Virus record (IMG/VR): IMGVR_UViG_3300020345_000381
Coordinates: 6,474 to 70,473 of that record
Length of the DNA: 64,000 bases
DNA from: a virus
Lineage: Duplodnaviria > Caudoviricetes
Strand: one strand, 5' to 3'
Positions 3,165 to 36,930 of the stretch are shown in pieces. Positions within the stretch are counted from its first letter, which is position 1. Each line of letters opens with the position of its first letter. The position numbers were made by a program, and so were the translations under genes. A model generated the notes under the pieces. It was not told the origin of the DNA. It saw only the letters and a program-made list of their open reading frames with translations, and made no database searches.

Positions 3165-4132
3165 TGGGTTTATTTGATGAAAGAATTCCTTACAAACCTT
3201 TTGAATATCCAGAATATTATAATGAAGGTTGGCTTAAACAAGCACAAGCATTTTGGCTTCATACAGAAATACCAATGTCTAGTGATGTTAAGGATTGGAA
3301 TGAAAAATTAACTAAAGAAGAGAAGAACCTAGTAGGTAATATCTTACTAGGTTTTGCTCAGACAGAATGTGCAGTATCAGATTATTGGACACAAAAAGTA
3401 GTATCTTGGTTTCCAAAACATGAGATACAACAAATGGCTATGATATTTGGGTCACAAGAAACCATACATGCAGTAGCTTATTCATATTTAAATGAAACTC
3501 TTGGTTTGGAAAATTTTGAAGCGTTTTTACAAGACAAGGCAACAATGGAACGCTTTGATAATTTAATTAGTTATGACGGAAATAACACCACTGGAATTGC
3601 AAGAAGCATTGCCATCTTTAGCGCATTTGCTGAAGGTGTTAGTCTTTATTCTGCCTTTGCTGTTTTATATAGTTTTCAACTCAGAAATCTTTTAAAAGGA
3701 GTAGGGCAACAAATGAAATGGAGTGTAAGAGATGAATCTCTTCATTCTAAAATGGGATGTCAACTCTTCAGACATATGTGTGAAGAAGATCCTAAGTTGT
3801 TAAACAAATCTAAAAAAGATATATTTGATGCAGCAGAAACAATGCTTGAAGCCGAAGAAAAGTACATTGATAAAATGTTCGAGCTCGGTGATATCGAAAA
3901 CCTTAAAGCTTACGACCTTAAACAATTTATCCGTAAAAGACTCAACGAAAAAATTATTGAACTCGGTTACACAAACAAACGGGAATACTTTGAGTTTGAC
4001 AAAGACGCAGCAAAAAATCTTGACTGGTTCTACCATCTTACCGGGGGGCATACTCATACTGATTTTTTTGCTATTCGTCCTACTGATTACTCGAAAGCTA
4101 ATGAAGGTGAAGATTTTGAAGATATTTGGTAA
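3164..4132 (+). CDS. nrdB: ribonucleotide reductase class I beta subunit
   Basis: FWLHTE, QTE, QETIHAVAY (E/H ligands and radical Tyr), AEGVSLYSAF, RDESLH, DFFAIRP. Confidence 0.95.
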   Translation: MGLFDERIPYKPFEYPEYYNEGWLKQAQAFWLHTEIPMSSDVKDWNEKLTKEEKNLVGNILLGFAQTECAVSDYWTQKVVSWFPKHEIQQMAMIFGSQETIHAVAYSYLNETLGLENFEAFLQDKATMERFDNLISYDGNNTTGIARSIAIFSAFAEGVSLYSAFAVLYSFQLRNLLKGVGQQMKWSVRDESLHSKMGCQLFRHMCEEDPKLLNKSKKDIFDAAETMLEAEEKYIDKMFELGDIENLKAYDLKQFIRKRLNEKIIELGYTNKREYFEFDKDAAKNLDWFYHLTGGHTHTDFFAIRPTDYSKANEGEDFEDIW

Positions 4133-4136
4133 ATGA
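3828..4136 (+). CDS. putative overprinted +1-frame ORF in the nrdB 3' end, with a C-terminal transmembrane segment
   Basis: 102-codon ORF; nrdB avoids TTA/ATA throughout the overlap; ends GILILIFLLFVLLI-TRKLMKVK; ATGA overlap with the next gene. Confidence 0.5.
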   Translation: MQQKQCLKPKKSTLIKCSSSVISKTLKLTTLNNLSVKDSTKKLLNSVTQTNGNTLSLTKTQQKILTGSTILPGGILILIFLLFVLLITRKLMKVKILKIFGK

Positions 4137-4438
4137 AATTCTTATGCACTGCTTGTGGAGCCTGTTGTATGACTGCAGGTAAATTAAAATTAATGCCAGA
4201 CAGAGGAGATGGTGCTTGTATAAATTTAAATGATTTAAATTTGTGTAATATTTATGATGCAAGACCAGAATTTTGTAGTATTACTGATATGTATTATAAC
4301 TATAATTTAGAAGAAGAAGAAAATATAACTTTAAAAGAATGGTATATTAAAAACACAAAAGATTGTCATACTTTGATTGATCATTATAAATTAGATGATA
4401 AATATAAAGTAGACACCGAAGAATATGAGAACATGTAA
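4133..4438 (+). CDS. YkgJ-family cysteine cluster (Fe-S/Zn) protein
   Basis: CTACGACC...GDGACINL...LCNIYDARPEFC pattern. Confidence 0.8.
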   Translation: MKFLCTACGACCMTAGKLKLMPDRGDGACINLNDLNLCNIYDARPEFCSITDMYYNYNLEEEENITLKEWYIKNTKDCHTLIDHYKLDDKYKVDTEEYENM

Positions 4439-4781
4439 CATTTGCGGCAGACCAAAAAAAGATTCAAAGTTTAAACACATAAATAAAAAAACGTGTAAAC
4501 GCTGTGAGTTTAGATGGAAAAGATCTTTTTTAAGATTATTAGTTCATGATAGAAGACTTAGTGCTAAAGAAAGAATAGCTAATAGACTTGGATATTTTGG
4601 AACTGCTTTTATAATGATTAGTCCTTATTTGTTACCATATGGAAACATAGGCGCAATTACATATGTTATTGGGGGTATTGTGTGTATTCCTCAAGTATGG
4701 GTTGCTAAACAATGGAATTTAGTTTTAGTTAATTTAAATGTAACAATTGGTTACTTAATTTATTTATTATATAATGGATGA
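4425..4781 (+). CDS. Zn-finger plus small multi-pass membrane protein
   Basis: CxxC...CxxC N-terminus followed by about three hydrophobic helices with a PQ motif. Confidence 0.6.
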   Translation: MRTCNICGRPKKDSKFKHINKKTCKRCEFRWKRSFLRLLVHDRRLSAKERIANRLGYFGTAFIMISPYLLPYGNIGAITYVIGGIVCIPQVWVAKQWNLVLVNLNVTIGYLIYLLYNG

Positions 4782-4992
4782 TATAGAAAAAATAAAAGAA
4801 TACGCTTTAAAATATTATAAAAAACATTTTGTTAAAAAATACACAGTAATTGAACCAACAACACGAGGTAAAATAATGAGAACTAAATCTAAAAATTTAC
4901 CCGTTTTAATATCTATAAAAGATACTCATATTGAAGTAAAAAATAATAAAGATGCTTCACCAATTATATTAAATAAAACTATATTACAATGA
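4774..4992 (+). CDS. hypothetical protein
   Basis: ORF track; coupled to neighbours. Confidence 0.6.
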   Translation: MDDIEKIKEYALKYYKKHFVKKYTVIEPTTRGKIMRTKSKNLPVLISIKDTHIEVKNNKDASPIILNKTILQ

Positions 4993-5222
4993 AAGAAAGT
5001 AAATTAATAGAAAAATTTAACAAATTAGATAAACAAATGACAGCTGTAACTAATGTACTGCGTAAAATAATACACGATTTAGGTAACGTAGAAAATTTAG
5101 CTCAAGGTACTTTAACTACACTTAAAACTTTTATGGGAGAAAAAGAATGGGATAAAGTAATAAAAGAATTAAAAGATAAAGATATTATTAAAGACAAAAA
5201 AGAAAAAAAATTAGAAGTATGA
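4989..5222 (+). CDS. hypothetical coiled-coil protein
   Basis: ORF track; ATGA overlaps on both sides. Confidence 0.65.
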   Translation: MKESKLIEKFNKLDKQMTAVTNVLRKIIHDLGNVENLAQGTLTTLKTFMGEKEWDKVIKELKDKDIIKDKKEKKLEV

Positions 5223-5581
5223 AAAAAATTATATTAAGTATATTTACATTATTATCTTTTGAATTATATTCTCAAAATTTAGAAGATTTTGAAGGATTAT
5301 GGACAAGTGGAGGAACTAATTTCGTAACCGTATTTGCTCATAATGACATAGAAGACTCGTTGTCTGTTTATACATTTAGTTTTGTGAGTAATCATATTGT
5401 AAACGAAACTATAACCAAAACAAACGATACATTAGTTTCCACTAAAACTTTTAATCAGAAAAACGGATGGACTGTAACAACAGATTATAAACTTTTAAAT
5501 AAAAATACAATGTTAGCATCTTTTCAAGGAGATATAGATGTAAAACTTTTATTTTATAAAGCTAAATTTAATGTGGAATAA
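5219..5581 (+). CDS. secreted beta-rich protein with signal peptide
   Basis: MKKIILSIFTLLSFELYSQ signal peptide followed by a beta-strand pattern (GLWTS...). Confidence 0.6.
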   Translation: MKKIILSIFTLLSFELYSQNLEDFEGLWTSGGTNFVTVFAHNDIEDSLSVYTFSFVSNHIVNETITKTNDTLVSTKTFNQKNGWTVTTDYKLLNKNTMLASFQGDIDVKLLFYKAKFNVE

Positions 5582-7289
5582 CGATTGGGTAAAAGGAAAA
5601 GATTATCCTTCTTGGGGTAATAACGATATATATAAACAAACTATAACTGGAGGTTATTTATTACCTACAGAAACTCCTCGTGAGGCTTATCAAAGAGTAG
5701 CTAAAACAGTTGCAAAACGTTTATATAAACCCGAATTATCAGAAAGGTTTTTTGAATATATTTGGAATGGTTGGCTTTGTTTAGCTTCTCCAGTTTTATC
5801 TAATACTGGCACAGATAGAGGTTTACCCATAAGTTGTTTTGGAATTGATGTAGCTGATAGTATTAATGATATAGGCCAAAAGAATTTAGAAATGATGATG
5901 CTTGCTAAACACGGAGGAGGAGTAGGTATTGGTGTTAATATGATTCGTCCTGCTGGAGCTAAAATAACTGGTAATGGTACATCAGATGGTGTGGTACCAT
6001 TCTGTAAAATTTATGATTCTACTATACTAGCAACTAATCAAGGAAGTGTTAGACGAGGAGCAGCTTCAGTTAATATAAATATAGAACATAAAGATTTTTT
6101 AGATTGGTTAGAAATAAGAGAACCTAAAGGTGATGTAAACAGACAATCACTTAATTTACATCAGTGTGCTGTAGTAGGAGATAAATTTATGAGAAGACTT
6201 GAGGCTGGTGATTCAGTATCACGAAATAAATGGAGTAAATTATTACAAAAAAGAAAAGCAACAGGAGAACCTTATATTTTATTTAAAGGTAATACTAATA
6301 AAGCCAATCCATCAGCGTATAAAGACAACGCTTTAAAAGTACATATGACAAACATATGTAGTGAAATTGTTTTACACACAGATGAATCTCACAGTTTTGT
6401 TTGTTGTTTATCTAGCTTAAATTTAGCTAAATACGAAGAATGGAAAAACACCAATATTATATATGATTCAATATGGTTTTTAGATGGAGTTTTAGAAGAA
6501 TTTATTCAAAAAGCTAAATATAGAAAAGGTTTTGAAAATTCTGTAAGATCTGCAGAAAAAGGTAGAGCATTAGGATTAGGAGTTTTAGGATGGCATACTT
6601 ATCTTCAAGAAAAAGGTTTACCTTTTGAAGGTTTGTTAGCTCAATTTGAAACAAGAAGAATATTTAGTCAAATAAAAATAGAATCTGAAAGAGCTAGTAT
6701 GGAATTAGCTGAAATATATGGAGAACCTTTATGGTGTAAAGGTACTGGAATGAGACACACTCATCTAAGAGCTATAGCACCAACGGTGAGTAATTCTAAA
6801 TTATCCGGTAATGTTTCACCAGGCATTGAACCTTGGGCAGCTAATGTATTTACTGAACAATCTGCTAAAGGAACTTTTATTAGAAAAAACCCTACATTAG
6901 TTAAAATATTAAGAAAACATAAATTAAATACAAATGAAATTTGGGATAAAATTTTGGCGGATGGTGGTTCAGTGCAAGCCATTGATGAACTTGATTCTGT
7001 GGTTCTTGCTAACGACATACCGGCTAAAGACGTTTTTAAAACGTTTAAAGAAATAAATCAACTTGAATTAATAAATCAAGCTGGCATACGACAACAATAT
7101 ATAGATCAATCAGTTAGTTTAAATTTAGCTTTTCCAGCAGAAGCTCCACCTAAATGGATAAATAAAGTTCATATAGATGCTTGGAAAAAAGGCGTTAAAA
7201 CACTTTATTATATGAGAACTGAGTCGGTATTAAGAGGTGATATTGCCGCTAATGCAATGGACCCAGGTTGTGTTAGCTGCGATGGATAA
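5571..7289 (+). CDS. nrdA: ribonucleotide reductase class I alpha subunit (no ATP cone)
   Basis: LPISCF, GGGVG, TNICSEI, VCCLSSLNL, IAPTVSNS, TLYYMR and C-terminal CVSC; only 572 aa. Confidence 0.95.
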   Translation: MWNNDWVKGKDYPSWGNNDIYKQTITGGYLLPTETPREAYQRVAKTVAKRLYKPELSERFFEYIWNGWLCLASPVLSNTGTDRGLPISCFGIDVADSINDIGQKNLEMMMLAKHGGGVGIGVNMIRPAGAKITGNGTSDGVVPFCKIYDSTILATNQGSVRRGAASVNINIEHKDFLDWLEIREPKGDVNRQSLNLHQCAVVGDKFMRRLEAGDSVSRNKWSKLLQKRKATGEPYILFKGNTNKANPSAYKDNALKVHMTNICSEIVLHTDESHSFVCCLSSLNLAKYEEWKNTNIIYDSIWFLDGVLEEFIQKAKYRKGFENSVRSAEKGRALGLGVLGWHTYLQEKGLPFEGLLAQFETRRIFSQIKIESERASMELAEIYGEPLWCKGTGMRHTHLRAIAPTVSNSKLSGNVSPGIEPWAANVFTEQSAKGTFIRKNPTLVKILRKHKLNTNEIWDKILADGGSVQAIDELDSVVLANDIPAKDVFKTFKEINQLELINQAGIRQQYIDQSVSLNLAFPAEAPPKWINKVHIDAWKKGVKTLYYMRTESVLRGDIAANAMDPGCVSCDG

Positions 7290-7320
7290 TAAAAGAAGGG
7301 AGACCTTTCGATCTCCCTTC
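7288..7320 (-). terminator. intrinsic terminator at the convergence of the two gene blocks
   Basis: 9-bp stem GAAGGGAGA (7295-7303) / TCTCCCTTC (7312-7320); U-tract TTTTATT follows on the - strand. Confidence 0.8.
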
Positions 7321-7369
7321 AATACAGGAACTTTGGGGTGTGGAGCCCATTTTATCGTGTTCCCTTTTA

Positions 7370-7723
7370 TTAATATGTCCACATTACATCGGGATCTTTA
7401 TCAGGATCCATATCTACATGTATAAAGGTATTTCCTATACCTATTCTAGTAAATCCTACATCTAATAAACAATTAAGAAGATCATATCTGTCTCTTGAGT
7501 TTATACAATGAATATCAACTGCTAAACCTTTAAGATGAGAGGAATTCTTTTTTCCCCCAACCTTTTTATTATGTTCTTTTGTTCGATAACCACTATTTAT
7601 GTGGATCGCTCTATCAAACTTAGATCGCACTAGATCTATTTTATCTAGCATTTCTTGTTTCATGTTTCTTCCACTACCCATTTCATCAGGTGAATCAAAC
7701 TCTGTAATATTAAAATATTGCAT
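7370..7723 (-). CDS. peptidase M15A endolysin
   Basis: INSGYR...HNKKVGG...SSHLKGLAVDI...FIHVD Zn-binding motifs. Confidence 0.9.
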   Translation of the reverse strand: MQYFNITEFDSPDEMGSGRNMKQEMLDKIDLVRSKFDRAIHINSGYRTKEHNKKVGGKKNSSHLKGLAVDIHCINSRDRYDLLNCLLDVGFTRIGIGNTFIHVDMDPDKDPDVMWTY

Positions 7724-7800
7724 TATCTGTATTTTTTAAACATTAGTTTATAAAGCAAAGCATTCCACGCTGCTTGTAGTTTATCTATAAATTTTTTCAT
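7723..7800 (-). CDS. 25-aa amphipathic basic peptide
   Basis: MKKFIDKLQAAWNALLYKLMFKKYR; starts 1 nt after the upstream stop and has a TAATG overlap with the endolysin. Confidence 0.6.
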   Translation of the reverse strand: MKKFIDKLQAAWNALLYKLMFKKYR

Positions 7801-7801
7801 A

Positions 7802-8224
7802 TTATTTACCTTTACATTTACAATTATTTTCTCCACAAGTGCACTGTTTATTTTTACTATAAAGAGTATCAAATGCGTTTGCACCTAATAGAGTTAGTTG
7901 ATCAATCATGTTAGTTTGTATTTTAATTAACATTTTTTCAAGCTCATCTTTTTGAGTTACTAAATGATCTACTTTAGAAGTTAAACCTTCGTTTTGTTTT
8001 TTAAGTTCATTTACTTCATCTGGATTTCTTCCGATTACAGTCATTATTACCACTGACAAAGACCCTACAATCATACCTATTATAGATACAACAACATCTT
8101 TATTCATGTTTGGTATTTCGTTATATGATAAGAAAACTAGTATACCTATTACTAATAAAAATATACCAATTGCCCCTACATAATGCCTTAATTCTTTTGC
8201 TACGCCGTTTGTTATTTTCATCAT
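7802..8224 (-). CDS. 2-TM membrane protein with coiled coil (holin or spanin-like candidate)
   Basis: Two hydrophobic helices, heptad region and Cys-rich tail; adjacent to the endolysin. Confidence 0.55.
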   Translation of the reverse strand: MMKITNGVAKELRHYVGAIGIFLLVIGILVFLSYNEIPNMNKDVVVSIIGMIVGSLSVVIMTVIGRNPDEVNELKKQNEGLTSKVDHLVTQKDELEKMLIKIQTNMIDQLTLLGANAFDTLYSKNKQCTCGENNCKCKGK

Positions 8225-11200
8225 TTGTTGTACTTTATTATTTTTCTTTTTGGTTTTCTTTTAGATTTTTTATTTGATTTAGATTTCTTAATTCCTAGTT
8301 CCCAATCAGACCATCCTGCAAGCATTGCTATTCTTTGCCACGCTTCATAGTCTGAACTGCTAGCTTTTCTTATATTATCAATTTTTTTAAATGCTCTATC
8401 AAGTGGAATATTTGTAGTTGCAGCAATAACTTGGCCTGCTGCTAAATATGCAGGATTATCTAATGAAAATCCTTTTTCCATCATTTCTTTTTTATTCCAA
8501 TCATAAGTTCTACCAGCAGCTCTTAGTTTACTTAGTTTAGAAGATACAGGAGGAGAAAGTTGAGCTATTTCTTTAACTAATACATCTTGAAATTTAGGTG
8601 ATTTCTTTTGAGCTTCTTTACTTAATTTAATAGCTGTGTTTTTTAACACGGAAAATATAGCACCTCCTACACCAGCGCCTCTTAATATACTATCAGCCAT
8701 AGAATTGACTATATTATAATATTTTTCCTGTCTTTTTTCTGTTTCTTCTTCTTCATCTCCAAAGCCCATAGCAAATAAAGCTTGTTGCATAGCGTTGAAA
8801 AATAGATTTTGTACAAATCCATAATAAAATATCTTAGATATATTGGTTATTGTGTCTCCTCGGCCATTTCTAAGATCACTAGCAGCTTTTTTAATCAACC
8901 TAGTGTATTGCATTGGAGTGTTAGCAAAAGCTAATATAACGCGCCCTAATGGTCCAGCTTGTTGTTGACTAATTCTGTCCGGTCTACTGGACTGTTGAGC
9001 TTCTTCTGCAATTTCTCTAAAATCTATAAAAGCTTGATTCTCCGCTTCTGCTTTAGACATACCTTCTTTAGTATACTTTTTAACTCTATTTCTATAAAAT
9101 GTAGAACCACCAGATGCAATAGCAAAACTATCTGCTAACTGAGTAGGTAAAAATCCTATTCTAAGTATTTCACTTATAACTCCTCTTACACCACCTTTTT
9201 TAGCCATGTCAGCTATATCAGTTTCATTTACATTTAATCTCAATCCGTTTCTTCTATCTACTAAAAAGTCACTATTAAAAAGTGTAAGAAAATCTTTCCA
9301 AAATTGAGGTTGATTTGCAAACGCTTTACCCGCAGCAAATAAATTGTTGTCTTTAAAATTTATAAAGTTAACAGCAGATATAGTTTGAAGAACCGCTGAT
9401 CTTGTATTAAAAAACATTATTGCACCAATAGAATTAGTTAACCAATCTGTTACTCTACCTGTTAAAGAATCAGAGGTAAATTCCCTGTTTCTACCCGTAC
9501 GCATTCTTTTTAATATATTTTCCAGTGCATCTCTATATCCTTTACCATAAGCAGCTTCAAGTTTATTTAAATTAGCTTTAGTAAATATTTCATCTACATT
9601 ATACTGCCATTGTTCTAAATATTTAGCTCTTTTAATAGTGTTGATACCATCAATTAAATCAGTGGTGATATTTCCAGCTAACCAACCAAATTTAGGAGCC
9701 GGATATTGATCTCCTTTCTGCATTGCAATTAATTGATTTGCAAAAGTAACTAATTCGGGTTTACTATCTACAAAATCAGTTAGATCTTTTAAATCTTTTT
9801 TAGACATACCTTCTGGCGACATTCCCTGTCTATTCCAAATATAAGTTCTTATTGCTTGTTCTTGAGTAAAAGGTTCTCCGGGTAATTTTTTCTTAAGATT
9901 TTTAGGAACAATTTTTAATTCTTTTTTAAGAGCTTTAAAATCATTCATAAGCGCTATTCTATCTCTTGATATGTTATCCATTGCTGTAGCAAAAGGATCC
10001 AATAGGTTTTTCTTATACCAAGCCATTTGAGCATCTCCAAGCTTTCCTTTACCTAAGGTTTTATATAATAATCCTACAAAATCTTCAGCAGATGGTGGAA
10101 CAAAGAAATTGAATTTTCCTTTATTTGCACCAACTACTTGAGCTTTAACATCTGAATAAACTTTATCAGCACCAATACCAGTTTTGTTTTCTAATATTTT
10201 ATTAAAGTCTTCACTTAAATTTTGTGATTCACTAAATGCCAGACGCTTTTCGTTGTCAATATTATCAACTTCTGCCATTTTATCTAACACCACATCATTA
10301 ATTAACTCTCCTTTAACTTGATCTTTTTTAGGTAAAATTTTATTATTAATAGGAGCAGCTTTTAAAATAGAATTATTTAAAGCTAAAAATTCTGTTCCAT
10401 ATATTTTTCCTTTATCTCTTCCACCTATAGATTCTAAAGCATACATATCTTTAAACCCTTTGTTTAATGCATTATAATATCTAGGCAAAACACCCATGTA
10501 GATTTTCCACCATGAAGGAAATGACTCTTGATGTAATACGTTTATTCTTGCATCCATTTCCACTGGAATCATAGCAACAACTTGATTTCTTTTCAATACT
10601 TTTAAATCAACACCATCCCCATAAAAATGTTTAATCATATCTTTAGACAAAACCAAAGAAGGATACATGTGTTCAAATCTAATTTCTCCTTTTGCTTTAC
10701 CTTTATAAAAATATTTTGGATAAGCCACCCGCTTTCCTAAAGCATTCATATTAGATTTAAGAGCCATTAAAGCCATACCAAATTGATATTTATCTCCATT
10801 TTTGTTTACATAATCAAGATAATCTACCATAGCATCAAAAGCTTCACCTGCTTCTTTTTTTCTATCTTTATATTCTTTAGTAAGTATATTTTTAGGTAAG
10901 TTGTTTTTTTGAGAAAAATTTTTAATTTTTTCTTTAAACTCTTTATCGGTTAATTTTGTTTTTCCATTAAACTCTACATTTTTTATTCTAATATTTTTAG
11001 TACCACTAAATATTATTTTAATATTATTTGGAGCTAATGTTTCATTAAGAGTATTTATCCAATCTAAAGAACCAGCATAACCTTGATATCTTCCTTTACC
11101 AATTCTTCCTGCACTTGTATTAAAATCTTTAAGAAATTTTATAATATGAATAATACCTTCTAAATCTCCTAATTTTTTTATTTGATTTAGTTGATAATCA

Positions 11201-15999: not shown

Positions 16000-16016
16000 A
16001 TTTTGGTAATGTTAGA

Positions 16017-17870: not shown

Positions 17871-17879
17871 ATCTATATT

Positions 17880-18698: not shown

Positions 18699-18725
18699 GT
18701 TATTTCAATTTATTTTTTTATAATT

Positions 18726-19153: not shown

Positions 19154-19157
19154 TTTA

Positions 19158-20916: not shown

Positions 20917-20950
20917 AATTTATAATTGCATATTTATTTAGAATATTACC

Positions 20951-26518: not shown

Positions 26519-26522
26519 TTAT

Positions 26523-27746: not shown

Positions 27747-27752
27747 CGCTTA

Positions 27753-28529: not shown

Positions 28530-28543
28530 TTATATTGTTTTAT

Positions 28544-28573
28544 TAAAATAAAGGAGGCCCGAGAGCCTCCCTT
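28544..28573 (-). terminator. intrinsic terminator
   Basis: Stem GGAGGC (28553-28558) / GCCTCC (28565-28570), followed by TTTATTTT on the - strand. Confidence 0.75.
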
Positions 28574-28584
28574 ATTAATATAGA

Positions 28585-29409: not shown

Positions 29410-29433
29410 GATATAATATAATTAAATAGTTAA

Positions 29434-29474
29434 AGTAAAGAATGGGAGCATCCGAAGACGCCCCTATCTTTACT
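29434..29474 (-). terminator. cUUCGg-tetraloop hairpin/terminator after the major capsid gene
   Basis: - strand GGGGCGTC-TTCG-GATGCTCC with outer stem AGTAAAGA/TCTTTACT. Confidence 0.7.
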
Positions 29475-29503
29475 GATATTAAATCCCTTTTGGTTTCACA
29501 GGA

Positions 29504-30955: not shown

Positions 30956-30974
30956 AATTGATAATTATTTATTT

Positions 30975-32264
30975 TTAATTAAACGTTTTCTTTTTTATTC
31001 TTAATTTTGAAGAATCAAGCCCACTAATTGCTTTTACTTTTAATCCACCTACAAATACTTCTCCTGAAGCTGTTTTTCTAGGTTCAGTACTAATGTTTTT
31101 AGATTTTGCTAATTGTTCTTTAATTGCATCGGTTTTACCTTGCTCATAAAAATGATTAGCAATAGTATCAACATTTTGTGCTGCATATAAAGCTTTATGA
31201 TAACCTTGATGATTTTCTACTTCTCCGTTTTTATTCAGAAACTTCTGAATAAAATTAGATATATCACTTTGATTATCTGCAACGTTTGAAGGATCTTTTA
31301 CTCCGTATCTAAATTTTTTATCTCCTAATTTAAAATCAAAACCTTTGAAATCTTCGTTAAAAAGCGTTTTAGTTTTAGATACAAATCTTTCATGTTTAGC
31401 TTCATTTAATGCTTGATCTTCAGTATAGCGATTGAAAAAGTCCATTGCTTTTTGTTGTTCTTGTGTTACACCGGGTCTCAACTTGATTTCGGCATAATAT
31501 TTACTTTTAAGATCTTCTAAAAAGTTTTTGGCTTTAGCTATCTCTTCTTTGTAAGCGAGTTTTTTCTTTTTTATATCTCGCTCCTCATCCACCTCTTCAT
31601 CATAGCTAAAAGAATCTTCAATAATAAAGCTTCTTTCTTCCATGTTTAAATGAGGCTTAGCTTGTTTGTAATATTCATGTAATAATGCTTCATCATTTAC
31701 TTTACTATAATCCGCATTTAATCTAGCATAGTCTTCAACAGTTCCACCTGTTTCTTCCATGAATTTTACTAAATTTTCTATATTTTCAGGAAGTTTTTGT
31801 GTTTCTCCTTCCTGTTGTATTTCTTCTTGTTTTTGTGAGGCAGTGGTAGTTTCAGTGCTTCTATCCATTCCTGTCTCGTTAGTATTATCTTCTTCATCAG
31901 TAATTTCTTGTAAAGGTGAATCCGATTCTATTTTTTCTTCTTGAGTTTCAGAAACTTTGCTGGACTTGAGTACCGATTCGTCCACCTTAGTGCTATCTCC
32001 GGTTTGTTCGCCCACAGCCACTTCCTTTGTTTCTCCGACTTGAATGGCATCTTTTTCTTCTTTTTTAGGTTTACTTAAATCTACTTTAACTAAATCAGGA
32101 ACTAATTTTTCATCACCTAATTGTTTAGGTTTAGTTACTTTTTTTATTTTAAAACTACCTTCTTCTTGAGGAGGTTTTTCTTTTGTAGATTCAACTGTTT
32201 CTTTAGCTTCTTCTACTTTTTCTAATACTTTTTCTTTTATTGTTTCTTCTACTTTTTTTGACAT
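30975..32264 (-). CDS. putative scaffolding protein
   Basis: Acidic, low-complexity, helical; between portal and capsid. Confidence 0.65.
   Translation of the reverse strand: MSKKVEETIKEKVLEKVEEAKETVESTKEKPPQEEGSFKIKKVTKPKQLGDEKLVPDLVKVDLSKPKKEEKDAIQVGETKEVAVGEQTGDSTKVDESVLKSSKVSETQEEKIESDSPLQEITDEEDNTNETGMDRSTETTTASQKQEEIQQEGETQKLPENIENLVKFMEETGGTVEDYARLNADYSKVNDEALLHEYYKQAKPHLNMEERSFIIEDSFSYDEEVDEERDIKKKKLAYKEEIAKAKNFLEDLKSKYYAEIKLRPGVTQEQQKAMDFFNRYTEDQALNEAKHERFVSKTKTLFNEDFKGFDFKLGDKKFRYGVKDPSNVADNQSDISNFIQKFLNKNGEVENHQGYHKALYAAQNVDTIANHFYEQGKTDAIKEQLAKSKNISTEPRKTASGEVFVGGLKVKAISGLDSSKLRIKKKTFN
31778..31897 (-). CDS. overprinted +1-frame small basic protein B in the scaffold gene
   Basis: MKKIILTRQEWIEALKLPLPHKNKKKYNRKEKHKNFLKI; same frame as A, starts 30 nt after A's stop. 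Confidence 0.6.
   Translation of the reverse strand: MKKIILTRQEWIEALKLPLPHKNKKKYNRKEKHKNFLKI
31928..32050 (-). CDS. overprinted +1-frame small basic protein A in the scaffold gene
   Basis: MPFKSEKQRKWLWANKPEIALRWTNRYSSPAKFLKLKKKK; host GC3 jumps exactly at its ATG. Confidence 0.7.
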   Translation of the reverse strand: MPFKSEKQRKWLWANKPEIALRWTNRYSSPAKFLKLKKKK

Positions 32265-32292
32265 AATATAATAATATAAAATTAATTAATTT

Positions 32293-34704
32293 TTAAGATG
32301 GACTAAATTGTTCTAATCCAAAACCATCTAAGTTATCATTTCCTGCAGATTCAAAATCTTTAGGTAGTGAATCATTTTGACGTTGAGCTATTAGTTCACT
32401 TTGTTGTGTACCTTGTATTTTAACTCTTTTGTCTTTTCTATCTTCTATTTCAGCTTCCTTAGCTTTTTGAGCTTGCCCTTGTATTTGAGCTAATTGCATA
32501 TCATAATTAAATTCTTCTGCCATTAACTGTTTTTTAAGCAGCGCTTCTTGTTCCATTTTCTTTATTTCAAATTGAGATTTAGCTTGTTCAATTTGTATTT
32601 CTGTTTCAGCCAAAGCTTGTTGTTTTTGTACTTCTGCTAATGCTGCTTTTTCGGCGGCTTCAGCATTAGCCTGTGCTTGAACTTCTATATTTTCTAATTG
32701 TTGTGCTCTAGCTATTTCTTGTTTTTTCTTTTGTCTAGCTTTTAAACTTTGATTAGCAAGTTTTATATTTTTTATTTCTCTTAAATCAATAGCATCTTCT
32801 AAACCTATATTTTGTTGCTGAAGAGACATTTGAATATTTTGTTCTAACAATGCTTTTTCTTCTTCTTCTGGTTCTAATTCTAAAAATATTCCAAAGTCAT
32901 GCATACTTAATTTTTCAACTTCTATTAAAGTATTGGTATTAAAAGTATTTATACTTGTTAATAAACTTTGTTTAGTTAAAGGAAATTGTAGCATATCTGC
33001 TGCTCTTAAACTAATATTTTCGCATACTCTAACAGTTAAATACATTAAAGATTGTAACACGTGTTTTGTAGCTGTATTAGAGTTTGCAGCTGCTAATTTT
33101 TGTAAACCTACTAAAGAATCTTTTGTCGGAGCACTTCCATCTCTTGCTTCATTTAATCCAGTAACATCTCTTATCATTTGTAAATAATATTGATAAGTTT
33201 GTATCATAGATTGAATTTTTCCCATTCCATTAGAAGTTTGTAATTCTTGTACTGGAATTTTACCTCTATTTAATTCTCCATCTTGAGTTAGTGATCTACC
33301 AACTATACTACCAGTTTGAAAATACATATTTAATGCTTCTGCTGGATTATAATTAGTTCCATTGCCTAAATCAACTTCCGCTAATCCATCTACATCTAAA
33401 TAAACCCCATCTGGTACCATTTTAGATAATACTTGTTGTAATTTTAAATGAGTTAATTGAATCATATCAGCAAAACCTATACTTTTACTTACTAAAGATT
33501 CTATTCTTCCTTGATACATTCTAGGAGCACTTATAACATAATTCATGTTAACTTTAGTAGTGTCACTATATGGTCTAGTCATATTTTCACTTAATTCCCA
33601 TTTAAGTAAATTACCTCCTAAACCTAATACTTTTGCTCCGCAATATAATACTTCTATTGCTCTTGAAACTCTTTCAAAATTATCATTTGGTGGCGGATTA
33701 AATGTATCTGGTTTTTCTAATATTTTTTCTAATCCTTGTTCAGTTTGTTTTATTTTAAAAACTTGATCTTGATATGTTTTATATTCAAAATATAAAACTT
33801 GAACTTGATCTTGTGTTTCTTGTCCCCACCAAGTATTTTCTACATAAGAATTTCTTCCAGGATATTTTTGTATTTCTTCTAAATCACTATCAGTTAAATT
33901 AGGAAATTGTCTTTTAAGTTCTGATAATGACATATTTTTAACTTCTCCTACGTAGTATATATCTTCAAAATTAGGATCATCTGTATAAGAATAAACTATA
34001 TTAGCAGGATTAACATAATCAACGGTAATTCCTTCTGATAAATTAAAATCAGTTTTTACACACCCAATACCTAAAACCGTTAAATCATAAGCTAGACGCT
34101 TTTTAACTTCGTTATATTTATTATATGATAAAATATTATCTAATAATTCTTCCTCTGCAATTTCAATACTTTGTTTATAAGTTAATTGCATGTATAAATC
34201 TAATTCATTAGGATCTTCTGGTAAATTCTCAGGATCGGAAGAAGAATAAAAATTTTGACCAGTTAAAGATGTTAATTGATCTATTTCGGCTTTATTTTGA
34301 ATATCTCTTAACGCATTTTCAGCATAAACTGTTCTTTCTTTATTAGCAAAAGGATCTTGTGCGTAAGATTTTATTTCATATCCTTTATCTGTCATACCGT
34401 TTACAACAATATCAACAAATTTAGATAAAATAGGTACTGGTTTCCAATCTAAGTTAAGATAAGATAAATCACCATTAATAGCTAATTCATTTTTATATTT
34501 TTGAACTGGTTGTTCTCCTCTTGCATATAATCTTAATCTATTAAAATTTTGAAAATTACTGATAAAACGGTTTTGACCGCTGGAGTTTCTAAACCACTCA
34601 TGCTCAATTGCTTGCGCTACTTGTAGTCCATACTCTCTAGATTTTTTCTCTTCTTCAGGTACCACCTGATCAGGAAAAGCACTATTGTAGTTGATTTTAA
34701 TCAT
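32293..34704 (-). CDS. portal protein
   Basis: 803 aa directly after terL; SYLNLDWKPVPILSKFVDIVVNG motif. Confidence 0.85.
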   Translation of the reverse strand: MIKINYNSAFPDQVVPEEEKKSREYGLQVAQAIEHEWFRNSSGQNRFISNFQNFNRLRLYARGEQPVQKYKNELAINGDLSYLNLDWKPVPILSKFVDIVVNGMTDKGYEIKSYAQDPFANKERTVYAENALRDIQNKAEIDQLTSLTGQNFYSSSDPENLPEDPNELDLYMQLTYKQSIEIAEEELLDNILSYNKYNEVKKRLAYDLTVLGIGCVKTDFNLSEGITVDYVNPANIVYSYTDDPNFEDIYYVGEVKNMSLSELKRQFPNLTDSDLEEIQKYPGRNSYVENTWWGQETQDQVQVLYFEYKTYQDQVFKIKQTEQGLEKILEKPDTFNPPPNDNFERVSRAIEVLYCGAKVLGLGGNLLKWELSENMTRPYSDTTKVNMNYVISAPRMYQGRIESLVSKSIGFADMIQLTHLKLQQVLSKMVPDGVYLDVDGLAEVDLGNGTNYNPAEALNMYFQTGSIVGRSLTQDGELNRGKIPVQELQTSNGMGKIQSMIQTYQYYLQMIRDVTGLNEARDGSAPTKDSLVGLQKLAAANSNTATKHVLQSLMYLTVRVCENISLRAADMLQFPLTKQSLLTSINTFNTNTLIEVEKLSMHDFGIFLELEPEEEEKALLEQNIQMSLQQQNIGLEDAIDLREIKNIKLANQSLKARQKKKQEIARAQQLENIEVQAQANAEAAEKAALAEVQKQQALAETEIQIEQAKSQFEIKKMEQEALLKKQLMAEEFNYDMQLAQIQGQAQKAKEAEIEDRKDKRVKIQGTQQSELIAQRQNDSLPKDFESAGNDNLDGFGLEQFSPS

Positions 34705-36930
34705 CTAATTTAGAATTTTTGAATTTACTCCTTTATTATCATATTTTTTAAAACCTAAAGGCACCGATGTCAGTTTGCGTTCTGCTGTTGGCCTATATCT
34801 ATTTTTATTACATGCCATAATTGCTAAGCCTGAACTTATTGAGGCATCATGAAGTGTTCTGTTGTTTATATTAAATCTTGCCCAATCTTCTAAAGTGCGT
34901 TGAAAATATAAATCTCCATAATTTTCACCATTATATCCTATAAAATTTTCTATATAATCTTCTATAGCAGCTGCATGAGCTTGTTTGATATCTTCACTAG
35001 AGTTAGGTATACCACCTATTTCTCTTTCTGTTACTGATAATTTATTATAAATTTTATCTGGTCTATTCATAGAATATCCTCTATAACCTCTTCGTTTTAA
35101 ATAATATAATAATCTAGGTTTGTTATTTTCTGCAAGAAGTGGCATTCCATAAAATACTAATGCCATTAAAACATCTTCAAAAAAGATTTCAGCAGTTTGA
35201 GGTCTTGCTATATATTCTAAAAAAAAGCTATTAGGAGGAACATCCTCCATTGTAAATTTAGTTAAACCATGCAAAGAACCTTTTGAACCTCTACCATCTA
35301 CAGTTCCTGAAATATCATACGGATCACAACCAAAAGCACCACAATCAGTATTGGCAGGATATCGTATTCCATTTTTTATATTATACCTATTTTGTAAATT
35401 ATTAGGAGGAATCCACGAAATAAAAAATCTTCCATTATTATTAGGTATAAAAATAACTCTAGTATCTTTAATCCCATTTTCCCATTGAAAATTACCTTGA
35501 CTTATAATGTTTGTATTACGTAAATCTTCATTATAATCTATTTGTTCATATATTTTTGTAAGATTAAAAAGAGATTGTTTTGCTTCATCTCTAAAAGCGT
35601 GTTTTTCAGTTCGTGGGAATTGTCTATAAAATTCATTTAAACTGTCTTGATCTTCTTTTAAACCTTCAACTTCGTTTTCCCAGTGAGAGATAACCCCGAT
35701 ATTAATTTGTGATCCGTCAATCCCTTTAACGGCTTTTTTTGGAGTTTCGAATACAGGTATGCCATAAGTATTGATGTATCCTTCGTAGTTCCATTCCATA
35801 GGTATGAACAAACTATATAATCCTGTATTAGTCTGTCCATTGCGGTTTCTTTTTGTAACATCTGAAGCGTCATATAATTTTTTAAAGTTATCACCACCTT
35901 TGTCTAATGCATTTGATGTAGATCCCATCATACATTTTCCAACTATTCTACTCCCTAATCTTAACGTCGTTTTCGTGACTCTCCAGTTGTTGAGGATATT
36001 ATCCGGCCTCTCCCATTTCCCTGACTCGTCGTGCGCAAGGAGTTGTAACTTCTCCCCATCGTAGGAGTTGTCGCCGGTATTCTTCCAATCGATGGTTGTA
36101 TCCAACCCCTGGAGGTCTTCGATCTTACTATTCTGGTCCAATTTTTTTCTGGTAAGCTTCGAGGCAGGGACTCTATACGCGAGTTCCGTCTTGGGGCGGT
36201 CCATACCGTCCTGGATTGGTTTGAAAAAGAAGGGATAGTTAACTGATATTGGTACCACTTTGTCAGTAAACATCTTTTTCGCATCAGCTCCAGTTTTAGA
36301 TAATATTCCATATCGTGAATCTGAGGATATAGTGGCCTGGTGTACCAGTTCTGAGGATGCCATGAAAGAAAATCCCGATCGACGGTTCTTAAGGTAGCAC
36401 ATTCCATAACACCTAGTATCGGATTTACACGCTTCCCAAAAAATAAAGAAAAGTCTGTTGGACTCTCGAAACTCTGGTTTCCCAACATCAATCTTGGTCC
36501 ACTGCAAGTACATATAATGAGAACCAGTAATATAAGTGGGAATGCCTTTGTTATAAAACCAAAAGCCTTCTTCACGTCTTTTAAATTCTTCATCAATATA
36601 ATCATACCATTTATCTTTAAAATCAAGAGAAGTATTATTCCAATCAAAAACAGTTTTAAGTCTATCTAAAACTTTAGGATAATCAAATACTTCCCAATAT
36701 TGTTCTTCTTTTTTATTTCCTTTTTTATATACTTTTTCTTCTAGCGGTAAAGCAATTTTGAGACCTTGGATTTCATATATTTCCCCAATTTGGCCAGTTT
36801 TGCTGATAACCACGATATCATTTTCTTGATCGTACCCATATTTCCATTTTTTATATCTATTATTTCTTTTTATTATTTTTGGTTTAATATGATCAGATAA
36901 AATTTTATATAGAGTTTGTGTATATGTCAT
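34705..36930 (-). CDS. terL: terminase large subunit
   Basis: Walker A-like LKNRRSGFS, Walker B AHDESGK, MGST coupling motif, RuvC-like nuclease GCDPYD. Confidence 0.92.
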   Translation of the reverse strand: MTYTQTLYKILSDHIKPKIIKRNNRYKKWKYGYDQENDIVVISKTGQIGEIYEIQGLKIALPLEEKVYKKGNKKEEQYWEVFDYPKVLDRLKTVFDWNNTSLDFKDKWYDYIDEEFKRREEGFWFYNKGIPTYITGSHYMYLQWTKIDVGKPEFRESNRLFFIFWEACKSDTRCYGMCYLKNRRSGFSFMASSELVHQATISSDSRYGILSKTGADAKKMFTDKVVPISVNYPFFFKPIQDGMDRPKTELAYRVPASKLTRKKLDQNSKIEDLQGLDTTIDWKNTGDNSYDGEKLQLLAHDESGKWERPDNILNNWRVTKTTLRLGSRIVGKCMMGSTSNALDKGGDNFKKLYDASDVTKRNRNGQTNTGLYSLFIPMEWNYEGYINTYGIPVFETPKKAVKGIDGSQINIGVISHWENEVEGLKEDQDSLNEFYRQFPRTEKHAFRDEAKQSLFNLTKIYEQIDYNEDLRNTNIISQGNFQWENGIKDTRVIFIPNNNGRFFISWIPPNNLQNRYNIKNGIRYPANTDCGAFGCDPYDISGTVDGRGSKGSLHGLTKFTMEDVPPNSFFLEYIARPQTAEIFFEDVLMALVFYGMPLLAENNKPRLLYYLKRRGYRGYSMNRPDKIYNKLSVTEREIGGIPNSSEDIKQAHAAAIEDYIENFIGYNGENYGDLYFQRTLEDWARFNINNRTLHDASISSGLAIMACNKNRYRPTAERKLTSVPLGFKKYDNKGVNSKILN
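35658..35873 (-). CDS. second putative +1-frame ORF in terL (71 aa)
   Basis: Same +1 frame; C-ending synonymous codons enriched in terL over this stretch. Confidence 0.4.
   Translation of the reverse strand: MTLQMLQKETAMDRLIQDYIVCSYLWNGTTKDTSILMAYLYSKLQKKPLKGLTDHKLISGLSLTGKTKLKV
35961..36593 (-). CDS. overprinted +1-frame ORF in terL (210 aa from ATG 36593; frame open to 36647), possible lipoprotein
   Basis: 228 stop-free codons; terL GC3 about 66% at 36001-36240 versus about 15% in a downstream sample. Confidence 0.6.
   Translation of the reverse strand: MKNLKDVKKAFGFITKAFPLILLVLIICTCSGPRLMLGNQSFESPTDFSLFFGKRVNPILGVMECATLRTVDRDFLSWHPQNWYTRPLYPQIHDMEYYLKLELMRKRCLLTKWYQYQLTIPSFSNQSRTVWTAPRRNSRIESLPRSLPEKNWTRIVRSKTSRGWIQPSIGRIPATTPTMGRSYNSLRTTSQGNGRGRIISSTTGESRKRR

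What the first reader, a model, noticed from the sequence alone, without database searches (positions are those of the whole stretch)
3492..36647. Systematic +1-frame overprinting of core genes: a hidden layer of nested genes
Seen: the internally nested same-strand ORFs I found all lie in the +1 frame of a core gene: scaffold (31928-32050, 31778-31897), terL (35961-36647, 35658-35897), nrdB (3828-4136) and nrdA (6934-7056). In the best cases the host gene switches from about 0-15% G/C-ending codons to 40-66% over the nested ORF. The switch starts at the nested ATG (scaffold A) or ends at the nested stop (terL). Established: the host's third codon position is the second position of the +1 frame, so protein-level selection on the +1 product shows up as a local GC3 island. 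Inference: the phage hides small basic or membrane-targeted proteins inside its most conserved genes. They are co-expressed with replication or morphogenesis and invisible to standard gene callers, and could be regulators, host-takeover factors or lysis factors.
Basis: partly seen in the sequence, partly recalled or inferred. Interest (0 to 1): 0.9.

Follow-up and report, generated by a model that had tools for sequence, protein, structure and literature searches.

The report
Conserved hidden genes inside phage genes
In an uncultured marine phage, four small reading frames hidden in the +1 frame of the terminase, scaffold-like and ribonucleotide-reductase genes are kept open and conserved in dozens of related phages, so they are very probably real overlapping genes that gene callers miss; two other claimed frames are not supported.

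Summary
All six nested ORFs exist, and all lie in the +1 frame of their host gene. The GC3 islands are strong in terL and the scaffold-like gene and moderate in nrdB.

Tests on about 80 IMG/VR homologs per host gene support four ORFs:
- **terL-nested ORF (214 aa from ATG 36605):** 63 of 81 homologs carry it. None of about 10 stop-capable synonymous sites per sequence is used, against 50-70% in the flanks.
- **Scaffold ORF A (40 aa):** about 72 of 79 homologs carry it. It is more conserved than the host frame, matches phrog_1375, and has stand-alone homologs in unrelated cultured phages.
- **Scaffold ORF B:** always 39 aa, with 75% identity against 58% for the host frame.
- **nrdB-nested ORF (about 100 aa, C-terminal membrane helix):** open in 63 of 81 homologs.

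Two ORFs are not supported:
- **nrdA ORF (6934-7056):** it carries stops in homologs whose nrdA is 88% identical.
- **Second terL ORF (35658-35897):** unresolved.

Frames +2 and antisense, and seven control genes, show no such signal. Relatives carry a further 120/124-aa nested gene in nrdA that this phage lacks.

Host-synonymous rates are reduced only in parts. The long tails evolve fast, while frame openness and composition are kept. Translation is inferred, not shown. The kind (overprinted embedded genes) is known; these members are new.

The parts
34705..36930 (-). Host gene: terminase large subunit (741 aa).
   Evidence: phrog_6681 E 3.9e-166. 80 IMG/VR homologs at 75-92% aa identity. The host frame is highly conserved across the island, with aa diversity 0.03-0.27.
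35961..36605 (-). terL-nested +1 gene: 214 aa from the conserved ATG at 36605 (the mechanical ORF starts at TTG 36647), stop at 35961-35963. It has an N-terminal basic and hydrophobic helix ending in a conserved C-x-C-S-G motif. The rest is a basic tail rich in S, T, P, R and Q that looks disordered.
   Evidence: 63 of 81 homologs have an ATG-started ORF of 145-248 aa at the same place, ending at discrete stop classes. In 52 fully open homologs, 0 of 10.3 stop-capable sites per sequence are used, against 51-72% in the flanks and 60% in 17 closed homologs. Permuting synonymous codons within the island expects 2-5 stops. AlphaFold2 gives a helix at residues 2-34 and pLDDT below 50 for the rest. 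pI is 10.8.
35941..36570 (-). GC3 island of terL (codons about 121-330).
   Evidence: GC3 is 0.4-0.7 against about 0.1 in the flanks. Homologs that carry the nested ORF have the island and homologs that lack the ORF do not.
35658..35897 (-). Second terL +1 ORF (80 aa, GTG start): unresolved, probably not a gene.
   Evidence: There are only about 2 stop-capable sites per sequence, so its openness is uninformative. A run of 8 unused sites is expected about once per genome by chance. However, host-synonymous change is low at codons 343-400 in homologs that carry the nested ORF (0.60x flank in close pairs), and GC3 is 0.41 at codons 361-380 in all homologs.
30975..32264 (-). Host gene: scaffold-like protein (429 aa). 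The label rests on its position between the portal and the capsid-like gene. Its acidic N-terminal 165 residues are variable.
   Evidence: No Pfam or PHROG match. Its neighbours are the portal (phrog_6547) and a virion structural protein (phrog_13704). The host frame stays open in 79 homologs despite many indels.
31928..32050 (-). Scaffold-nested ORF A: 40 aa, basic, Trp-rich, starting MPFKSEKQ.
   Evidence: A +1 ORF of 37-52 aa starting MP[FLI]K/R/Q sits at the same aligned codon (72) in about 72 of 79 homologs. Pairwise identity is 0.46 in +1 against 0.37 in the host frame. Host-synonymous change is 0.61x flank. 14 of 32 members hit phrog_1375, best E 7.9e-6; the window's copy scores E 0.0096. 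Stand-alone homologs occur in Streptomyces phage FlowerPower gp48, phage C75C1 and Prochlorococcus phage P-RSP2.
31778..31897 (-). Scaffold-nested ORF B: 39 aa, basic. It lies in the same +1 frame, 30 nt after the stop of ORF A.
   Evidence: It is exactly 39 aa in all 13 homologs that carry it, the closest relatives plus L127/L140. Mean column identity is 83%. Pairwise identity is 0.75 in +1 against 0.58 in the host frame. There are only weak sub-threshold DUF7230 hits.
3164..4132 (+). Host gene: ribonucleotide reductase small subunit (nrdB).
   Evidence: PF00268 E 3.9e-57. 80 homologs at 83-98% aa identity.
3828..4136 (+). nrdB-nested +1 gene: 102 aa, with a basic N-terminal part and a C-terminal membrane-type helix. 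Its TGA stop overlaps the ATG (4133) of the next gene.
   Evidence: 63 of 81 homologs are open over nrdB codons 225-318. Over the wider span 214-322, 51 of 81 are open, and 8% of 13.8 stop-capable sites are used against about 50% elsewhere in nrdB. An ATG lies at codons 217-222 in nearly all homologs. Deep synonymous diversity is 0.25-0.33 against 0.38-0.48 in the flanks. The Kyte-Doolittle maximum is 2.94 at residues 69-87, and pI is 10.7. Close-pair synonymous rate is not reduced, at 1.08x.
5571..7289 (+). Host gene: ribonucleotide reductase large subunit (nrdA).
   Evidence: PF02867 and PF00317.
6934..7056 (+). Claimed nrdA-nested ORF (41 aa): not supported, best read as a chance ORF.
   Evidence: Homologs at 88% nrdA identity have several +1 stops inside it. 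Only the 99.5%-identical L164 keeps it.
5974..6339 (+). Place in nrdA (codons 135-255) where 48 of 53 relatives carry a 120- or 124-aa +1 gene. In this window the frame is closed, with many stops and GC3 0.08.
   Evidence: The ATG is fixed at codon 135 and the stop at codon 255 or 259. Stop-capable sites are used 5-6% of the time, and GC3 is 0.35-0.40 in carriers.

Best explanation
The window is an uncultured, AT-rich (about 30% GC) marine podovirus-like phage, by its nearest relatives a phage of Flavobacteriia. It carries at least four real protein-coding genes embedded in the +1 frame of larger genes:
- one of 214 aa in terL;
- two of 40 and 39 aa in the variable N-terminal part of the scaffold-like gene;
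- one of about 100 aa at the 3' end of nrdB.

**How it most likely works (inferred).** The nested ORFs lie on the host gene's mRNA. They are translated from their own internal AUGs, which sit in A-rich surroundings. Bacteroidetes ribosomes do not use Shine-Dalgarno sequences, so an internal AUG needs no special signal.

The host's synonymous third base is the middle base of each +1 codon. Choosing it removes +1 stops (NTA becomes NTT or NTC) and sets the chemical class of the nested residue. That creates the local GC3 islands.

**The products (shown by sequence analysis).**
- The terL product has an N-terminal membrane or signal-like helix and a long, basic, disordered-looking tail.
- The nrdB product is a basic protein anchored by a C-terminal helix.
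- The two scaffold peptides are small, basic and soluble.

**Evolution (inferred).**
- The terL, nrdB and (in relatives) nrdA genes are accessory. Alleles with and without the nested gene coexist and seem to move between backbones by recombination inside the host gene.
- Their tails evolve fast, while frame openness and composition are kept.
- Scaffold ORF A belongs to an older, widespread small phage protein family, so the scaffold gene probably extended over it.

Functions are unknown. My guess is membrane-associated or host-interaction factors for the terL and nrdB products.
For: **Frame-specific stop avoidance**
- terL: 0 of 10.3 stop-capable sites per sequence are used in 52 homologs, against 51-72% in the flanks and 60% in closed homologs. 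The replacing base is mostly T (69%), not G or C.
- nrdB: 8% against about 50%.
- Stop counts in terL are bimodal: 52 homologs have 0 and 17 have 4-10.
- Synonymous sites are near saturation among carriers, so the openness is not inherited by chance.

**Controls**
- Frames +2, -0, -1 and -2 of the same alignments give no signal, apart from one by-product in nrdB.
- Seven other genes give no +1 signal.
- An outgroup terL with uniform GC3 0.42 has 9 or more stops in the same stretch.
- Permuting codons within the island expects 2-5 stops.

**Fixed boundaries**
- A conserved ATG at terL codon 109 or 113 and discrete stop classes.
- ORF B is always 39 aa.
- The nrdA gene of relatives is always 120 or 124 aa.

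**Protein-level conservation**
- ORF A and ORF B are more conserved in +1 than in the host frame.
- ORF A matches phrog_1375 and has stand-alone homologs in three unrelated cultured phage lineages.
- The second Cys of the C-x-C motif in the terL product requires a rare CTG or TTG Leu codon in terL. Carriers have Cys there, while the closed homologs examined read Ser or Tyr.

**Other**
- No Rfam family lies there, and the island folds no better than shuffles.
- SD-independent initiation in Bacteroidetes: PMC6847099.
Against: - There is no direct evidence of translation. Metatranscriptome contigs cover the region but cannot separate a nested product from the host mRNA.
- Between close relatives, host-synonymous change is not reduced in nrdB (1.08x), in the nrdA gene of relatives (1.09x) or in the terL tail (1.25-1.47x). 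Purifying selection on these protein sequences is therefore weak or masked.
- Most of the terL product is predicted disordered, with pLDDT below 50.
- No family or fold gives a function.
- Nucleotide contexts of three of the four starts lack A at -3.
- Many database 'proteins' matching the terL ORF are frame chimeras from fragmentary contigs, so they are not independent support.
Confidence: 0.75

Rival explanations
1. Compositional mosaicism. The GC3 islands are segments recombined in from GC-richer relatives, and the long +1 frames are a passive by-product of fewer A-ending codons. No +1 product exists.
For: - Island and flank trees of terL disagree. Alleles with and without the island are scattered over the flank tree but separate in the island tree, so recombination does act here.
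- Synonymous change in the terL tail is higher than in the flanks.
- Local-GC3-preserving shuffles explain the length of the nrdB ORF in the single genome (p 0.34).
Against: - At stop-capable sites the replacing base is mostly T, not G or C.
- An outgroup terL with uniform GC3 0.42 has normal stop numbers.
- Carriers with island GC3 of only about 0.30 still have 150-230 open codons.
- Permutation that keeps the island's exact codon usage expects 2-5 stops.
- ORF starts, stops and lengths are fixed.
- ORF A and ORF B are conserved as proteins and ORF A has stand-alone homologs.
- No GC-rich donor lineage was found.
Confidence: 0.07
2. The +1 frames are read by ribosomes but not as separate genes. 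They are the second part of programmed frameshift or slippage products (host N-terminus joined to the +1 frame, or a +1 peptide joined back to the host frame at A-runs). Alternatively they are tolerated translational noise whose only constraint is to avoid harmful truncated or hydrophobic products.
For: - Two contigs (L133, L083) join the first 22-29 residues of ORF A in frame to the scaffold C-terminal part.
- Many ORF A variants end in Lys or A-runs just before the stop.
- The terL tail is constrained in composition, not in sequence.
Against: - Conserved ATGs lie just after the last upstream +1 stops.
- ORF A homologs stand alone in other phages.
- The slippery A AAA AAG upstream of ORF A would shift to -1, not +1 (sequence read directly).
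- L083 is a 5x-coverage contig, so an assembly error is likely.
- Fixed product lengths of 39 and 120/124 aa argue for discrete proteins.
Confidence: 0.1
3. Chance ORFs in an AT-rich genome. Short +1 frames of 40-80 codons are expected in every gene and mean nothing.
For: - The longest +1 frames of most genes are 30-60 codons, and the scaffold and nrdA ORFs are unexceptional by length.
- This reading is correct for nrdA 6934-7056 and probably for terL 35658-35897.
Against: For the other four ORFs: conservation in dozens of diverged homologs, frame specificity, negative control genes, and protein-level conservation above that of the host frame.
Confidence: 0.03

Closest known systems
Gene E (lysis) embedded in gene D (external scaffolding protein) of phage phiX174, and B within A (from my own knowledge).
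   Same: A small gene lies wholly inside a larger morphogenesis gene, on the same strand, in an alternative frame, and is translated from its own start. ORF A and ORF B likewise sit inside a scaffold-like gene.
   Different: phiX174 is a 5.4-kb ssDNA phage under strong size pressure, whereas this is a 70-kb dsDNA phage. E has an N-terminal membrane helix, while ORF A and ORF B have no hydrophobic segment. No lysis function is shown here. ORF A has stand-alone homologs, so it is probably older than the overlapping part of its host.
Rz1 o-spanin embedded in the +1 frame of Rz in phage lambda (from my own knowledge).
   Same: A +1 embedded gene in a tailed dsDNA phage whose product has an N-terminal signal-like hydrophobic segment followed by Cys. 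The terL product has a similar N-terminus.
   Different: The host gene is terL, not an i-spanin. A canonical lipobox is present in only 2 of 62 homologs. The product is 145-248 aa and rich in S, T, R and Q, rather than about 60 aa and Pro-rich.
Overprinted viral genes detected by comparative constraint; reviewed in PMC8227390 (title and abstract seen; not read in full).
   Same: A new frame sits over an existing gene and the product looks disordered and basic. That overprinted products tend to be disordered, basic and of restricted phylogenetic range is my own knowledge. The terL ORF fits: it is absent from both outgroups.
   Different: Excess synonymous conservation, the usual signature, is seen only in parts here. 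The clearest signal is frame-specific stop avoidance plus maintained composition. The genes are polymorphic (present or absent) among close relatives.
phrog_1375, small phage proteins of unknown function (for example Streptomyces phage FlowerPower gp48).
   Same: ORF A shares the N-terminal motif MP-[FY]-K-S-x-K-Q-[RK]-x-[YWF]-[LM]-x-A-x-x-P. 14 of 32 relatives match the profile.
   Different: In those phages the gene stands alone. Here it is embedded in the scaffold-like gene. The window's own copy matches only weakly (E 0.0096).

Membership tests
Embedded same-strand overlapping (overprinted) protein-coding gene | The alternative frame is kept free of stops in diverged homologs beyond chance, and in that frame only. 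| tested here: met
   Met for terL, scaffold ORF A and nrdB. Control frames and seven control genes are negative. Not met for nrdA 6934-7056.
Embedded same-strand overlapping (overprinted) protein-coding gene | Conserved start codon and stop position. | tested here: met
   terL has an ATG at codon 109 or 113 and discrete stop classes. ORF A starts at aligned codon 72 in about 72 of 79 homologs. ORF B is always 39 aa. nrdB has an ATG at codons 217-222 and ends at the nrdB stop.
Embedded same-strand overlapping (overprinted) protein-coding gene | Reduced synonymous change of the host frame, or an alternative-frame protein more conserved than expected. | tested here: inconclusive
   Met for ORF A (0.61x, and +1 identity above host), ORF B (+1 0.75 against host 0.58) and terL codons 113-150. 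nrdB is reduced at deep divergence but not in close pairs (1.08x). The terL tail is elevated at 1.25-1.47x.
Embedded same-strand overlapping (overprinted) protein-coding gene | Direct evidence of translation (ribosome footprints or peptides). | not testable with these tools
   Only metatranscriptome contigs were available, and they cannot show translation or a separate transcript.
phrog_1375 (small phage protein, unknown function), for ORF A | Significant match to the family profile. | tested here: inconclusive
   The window's copy scores E 0.0096 over residues 3-26. 14 of 32 orthologs score E 0.01 or better, best 7.9e-6. tblastn finds stand-alone homologs at E 1e-4 to 8e-3.
Rz1-type o-spanin or bacterial lipoprotein, for the terL product | Canonical lipobox [LVI][ASTVI][GAS]C after a signal peptide (pattern recalled from memory). 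| tested here: not met
   Only 2 of 62 homologs match. The conserved motif is (V/A)L(I/T)(T/I)-C-x-C-(S/N)-G, with T or I at position -1.
Rz1-type o-spanin, for the terL product | Embedded in, or adjacent to, an i-spanin gene of a lysis cassette. | tested here: not met
   The host gene is the terminase large subunit (phrog_6681).
Single-gene lysis proteins (phiX174 E, MS2 L type) | A membrane helix plus a basic region in a small overlapping-gene product that causes lysis. | not testable with these tools
   The nrdB product has a basic N-terminal part and a C-terminal helix (KD 2.94, pI 10.7). ORF A and ORF B have no hydrophobic segment. Lysis activity cannot be tested here.
DUF7230 (PF23876), for ORF B | Score at or above Pfam's gathering threshold. 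| tested here: not met
   16.1 bits against a cut-off of 27. 7 of 12 orthologs give weak hits, best E 0.0029.

The most novel reading that the evidence does not exclude
Core genes of this abundant marine phage group serve as carriers for a mobile layer of embedded accessory genes. Alleles of terL, nrdA and nrdB with or without a nested +1 gene are swapped between phage backbones by homologous recombination inside the essential gene. The nested products are fast-evolving, membrane-targeted or disordered basic proteins. They would act in host interaction (superinfection exclusion, counter-defence or lysis control), and embedding protects them from deletion.
Probability: 0.3. Interest if true: 0.85.

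Novelty: new member of a known kind. Interest (0 to 1): 0.68.

Why it matters
Tailed dsDNA phages are usually annotated on the rule of one gene per stretch of DNA. Apart from a few classics such as Rz1, embedded genes are treated as rarities of very small genomes.

Here a globally distributed marine phage group carries up to five conserved embedded genes. They lie inside terL, both ribonucleotide-reductase subunits and the scaffold-like gene. One is more than 200 codons long.

If they are translated, three things follow:
- Phage coding capacity and the count of small or disordered phage proteins are underestimated.
- GC3 islands in AT-rich phage genes become a cheap single-genome flag for hidden genes.
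- Phylogenies and selection analyses of marker genes such as terL and nrdA are biased in the overlapped parts.

The presence/absence alleles also give a natural experiment for function.

Tried and rejected
- **ORF length against shuffles.** This flagged only terL and nrdB, and I first took the scaffold ORFs for chance. Homolog tests overturned that.
- **'Stand-alone' ORF A in contig L083.** Retracted. The contig is a 5x-coverage relative whose scaffold gene is broken by frame changes.
- **Family searches.** Pfam and PHROG searches of the terL, nrdB and relatives' nrdA products gave no significant family.
- **Searches of cultured phages.** tblastn of ORF B and of the nrdB product found no match.
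- **Profile search with the terL product.** It found 158 clusters, but the five long ones I read (P0025, P0026, P0040, P0054, P0094) all join the nested frame to terL-frame sequence, so they are not independent evidence; the contexts of the rest were not checked.
- **PDB profile search with ORF A.** Only designed repeat proteins came up, which I judged spurious.
- **ESM Atlas.** It returned small viral hypothetical clusters and a weak DUF3008 lead at 0.83, which is not usable as evidence.
- **RNA explanations.** No Rfam family lies in the islands, and the island folds no better than shuffles, z +0.93.
- **Metatranscriptomes.** Contigs from four runs of three studies cover 31700-37000 but show neither strand, ends nor translation.
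- **Second structure prediction (ORF A).** Not accepted by the tool.
- **Canonical lipoprotein reading of the terL product.** Rejected.

Full report
**What the window is**

The window is bases 6474-70473 of a 70,473-bp IMG/VR virus record that CheckV rates 100% complete. Over most of its length it has about 30% GC.

- The genes called terL and portal match phrog_6681 and phrog_6547.
- nrdB and nrdA match Pfam PF00268 and PF02867/PF00317.
- The 'scaffold' gene (30975-32264, minus strand) has no family match. It sits between the portal and a virion structural protein (phrog_13704), so the label is positional.
- The nearest cultured relatives of terL are Flavobacterium, Tenacibaculum and Maribacter phages at 60-80% DNA identity over part of the gene.
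- IMG/VR holds hundreds of relatives. I fetched 80 loci each for terL, the scaffold-like gene and nrdB, the last with nrdA in its flank.

**Checking the observation**

All six ORFs exist, and each starts at an offset of 1 mod 3 from its host start.

The GC3 islands are real:
- terL rises from about 0.1 to 0.4-0.7 over codons 121-330 and falls just after the nested stop.
- The scaffold-like gene has GC3 0.00 for its first 70 codons and 0.43-0.47 from the nested ATG on.
- nrdB rises moderately.
- nrdA hardly rises.

Judged by length against synonymous-codon shuffles, only the terL ORF is exceptional. It has 234 open codons, with 0/300 global shuffles and 0.007 when local GC3 is kept. The 40-aa ORFs are ordinary by this measure. 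Length was a poor guide, and the decisive evidence came from homologs.

**The terL-nested ORF**

63 of 81 terL sequences, including the window (75-92% aa identity), carry an ATG-started +1 ORF of 145-248 aa at the same place.
- It starts at the window's terL codon 109 or 113.
- It ends at a few discrete positions: codons 264, 270-273, 295, 313-318 and 323-325.
- The other homologs have 4-10 stops in the core stretch and no GC3 island, so the distribution is bimodal.

I counted 'stop-capable' sites. These are host codons where some synonym would create a +1 stop given the next base.

| Region | Sites used as stops |
|---|---|
| Flanks, both groups | 51-72% |
| Island, closed homologs | 60% |
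| Island, 52 fully open homologs | 0 of 10.3 per sequence |

The base used instead is T in 69% of cases, C in 19% and G in 11%. The frame is therefore not open merely because the region is GC-rich.

Three controls agree:
- Permuting synonymous codons inside the island, which keeps its exact codon usage, expects 2-5 stops.
- An outgroup terL (MW202828, 63% aa identity) with uniform GC3 0.42 has the usual stops in that stretch, as does Flavobacterium phage elemoF.
- Frames +2 and the three antisense frames give no signal.

Synonymous sites are near saturation among carriers, so the open frame is maintained rather than inherited.

The product has three parts:
- a Lys-rich start;
- a hydrophobic stretch ending in a conserved C-x-C-(S/N)-G;
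- a tail of about 180 residues rich in S, T, P, R and Q.

The second Cys needs a rare CTG or TTG Leu codon in terL. Carriers have Cys there, while the closed homologs examined read Ser or Tyr. AlphaFold2 gives a helix at residues 2-34 and no confident structure for the rest. pI is 10.8. A canonical lipobox is present in only 2 of 62 homologs.

The usual signature of overlap is only partly there. Host-synonymous diversity is lower over codons 106-150, at 0.31 against 0.41-0.48 in closed alleles. It is higher over the tail, and in close pairs it is 1.25-1.47 times the flank rate.

A GC-rich third position in an AT-rich genome is expected to mutate faster, which may explain part of this (inference). 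Even so, the tail is clearly not a conserved sequence. What is kept is the open frame, the length classes and the composition. Carriers have less L, I and V and more S, R, T and P than the same frame in closed alleles.

Closed alleles are scattered over the flank tree but form one group in the island tree. I read this as two old allele classes exchanged by recombination within terL (inference).

**The scaffold-like gene**

The N-terminal 165 residues of the host protein are acidic, variable and full of indels, yet always in frame.

*ORF A*
- At the aligned codon 72, about 72 of 79 homologs (50-95% aa identity) have a +1 ORF of 37-52 aa beginning MP[FLI]K/R/Q-S/H.
- In this stretch the +1 frame is more conserved than the host frame (0.46 against 0.37), the reverse of every other part of the gene.
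- Host-synonymous change is 0.61 times the flank rate.
- 14 of 32 orthologs match phrog_1375, best E 7.9e-6. The window's copy scores only E 0.0096.
- The same N-terminal motif heads stand-alone small ORFs in three cultured phages: Streptomyces phage FlowerPower (annotated gp48, between 'peptidase' and 'holin'), phage C75C1 and Prochlorococcus phage P-RSP2. The last two are unannotated.
- ORF A is thus a member of an old small-protein family. The scaffold gene's variable N-terminal region probably extended over it, rather than the small gene arising de novo (inference).

*ORF B*
- It lies 30 nt downstream in the same frame.
- It is exactly 39 aa in all 13 homologs that have it, with 83% mean column identity.
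- It is 75% identical pairwise, where the host frame is 58%.
- It has only sub-threshold DUF7230 hits.

Two contigs (L133, L083) join the start of ORF A in frame to the scaffold's C-terminal part. One of them is a 5x assembly.

**nrdB**

- 63 of 81 homologs are open over codons 225-318. Over the wider span 214-322, 51 of 81 are open, and 8% of 13.8 stop-capable sites are used against about 50% in the rest of the gene.
- Twelve homologs have three or more stops.
- An ATG lies at codons 217-222 in nearly all.
- The product ends in a strongly hydrophobic helix (Kyte-Doolittle 2.94) followed by a short basic tail.
- Its TGA stop overlaps the ATG of the next gene.
- Deep synonymous diversity falls to 0.25-0.33 from 0.38-0.48 although GC3 rises. 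In close pairs the rate is not reduced, at 1.08x.

**nrdA**

The claimed 41-aa ORF at 6934-7056 is broken by several stops in homologs whose nrdA is 88% identical. I treat it as chance.

The scan instead revealed a different nested gene.
- 48 of 53 relatives carry a +1 ORF with a fixed ATG at nrdA codon 135 and a stop at codon 255 or 259, giving always 120 or 124 aa.
- In carriers GC3 is 0.35-0.40 and stop-capable sites are used 5-6% of the time.
- The window and four others have that frame closed, with GC3 about 0.1.

**The second terL ORF (35658-35897)**

Its openness is uninformative because only about 2 stop-capable sites per sequence exist. A run of 8 unused sites is expected about once per genome. 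However, codons 343-400 show low synonymous change in close pairs of ORF-carrying homologs (0.60x), and GC3 is 0.41 at codons 361-380 in all homologs. It stays unresolved.

**How general is it?**

- Portal, the GroES-like gene and five early genes show no +1 signal in their homolog sets.
- Across 48 genes of the window, long +1 runs of unused stop-capable sites occur only in terL and nrdB.

The phenomenon is therefore recurrent in this phage group, with five nested genes in four host genes, but it is not universal.

**Mechanism**

*Shown:* frame-specific selection against stops, conserved boundaries, and protein-level conservation for ORF A and ORF B.

*Inferred:* translation from internal AUGs on the host mRNAs. 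Bacteroidetes do not use Shine-Dalgarno sequences. Initiation there depends on low structure and upstream nucleotides such as A at -3 (PMC6847099). All four starts lie in A-rich surroundings, though only ORF A has A at -3.

RNA-level explanations find no support. Metatranscriptome contigs cover the region but cannot show translation. No earlier report of embedded genes in terL or the nrd genes turned up.

**Verdict**

They fail for one ORF and are open for one. 'Systematic' and the proposed functions go beyond the evidence. Embedded overprinted phage genes are a known kind; these members are new.

Noticed in passing
L167:5186-5548 (relative); homologous place in window 5974-6339 (+): 48 of 53 relatives carry a 120- or 124-aa +1 gene inside nrdA, with a fixed ATG at codon 135, a stop at codon 255 or 259 and GC3 0.35-0.40. 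The window, L164, L169, L187 and L197 lack it. No significant family match.
   Followed up: partly
window 35731-35904 (-), terL codons 343-400: Host-synonymous change is 0.60x the flank rate in close pairs of ORF-carrying homologs. GC3 is 0.41 at codons 361-380 in all homologs, carriers and non-carriers of the long nested ORF alike. This could be a third short nested ORF or some other constraint.
   Followed up: partly
L133:650-1693 and L083:3001-3174: In two contigs the first 22-29 residues of ORF A are joined in frame to the scaffold's acidic and C-terminal part, at different junctions. These may be natural fusion variants or assembly errors; L083 is a 5x contig.
   Followed up: partly
window 4130-4136 (+): The nrdB stop (TAA), the next gene's ATG (4133) and the nested ORF's TGA (4134-4136) are packed into TAAATGA. 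This arrangement would allow coupling of the nested ORF to the downstream gene.
   Followed up: no
P0040, P0054, P0094, P0026 (database proteins): Public protein collections hold chimeras that switch between the terL frame and the nested frame, from contigs with indels. Gene callers sometimes prefer the GC-richer nested frame on fragments.
   Followed up: partly
L244:2271-2913 (Streptomyces phage FlowerPower): The stand-alone ORF A homolog (gp48) lies between a 76-aa 'peptidase' and a 'holin'. This is a possible but unsupported hint of a link to lysis.
   Followed up: no
window 48000-60000 and 60000-64000: A block with GC 0.37-0.39 is followed by a block with GC 0.25 on the other strand, with a change in GC skew. 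A tRNA lies at 62612-62683.
   Followed up: no
window 35836-36527: In two metatranscriptome runs of one study, the contigs nearest to identity with the window (2 differences in about 600-690 nt) cover just the terL island. Neighbouring contigs differ more. This may reflect strain mixtures and is not interpretable as expression.
   Followed up: no
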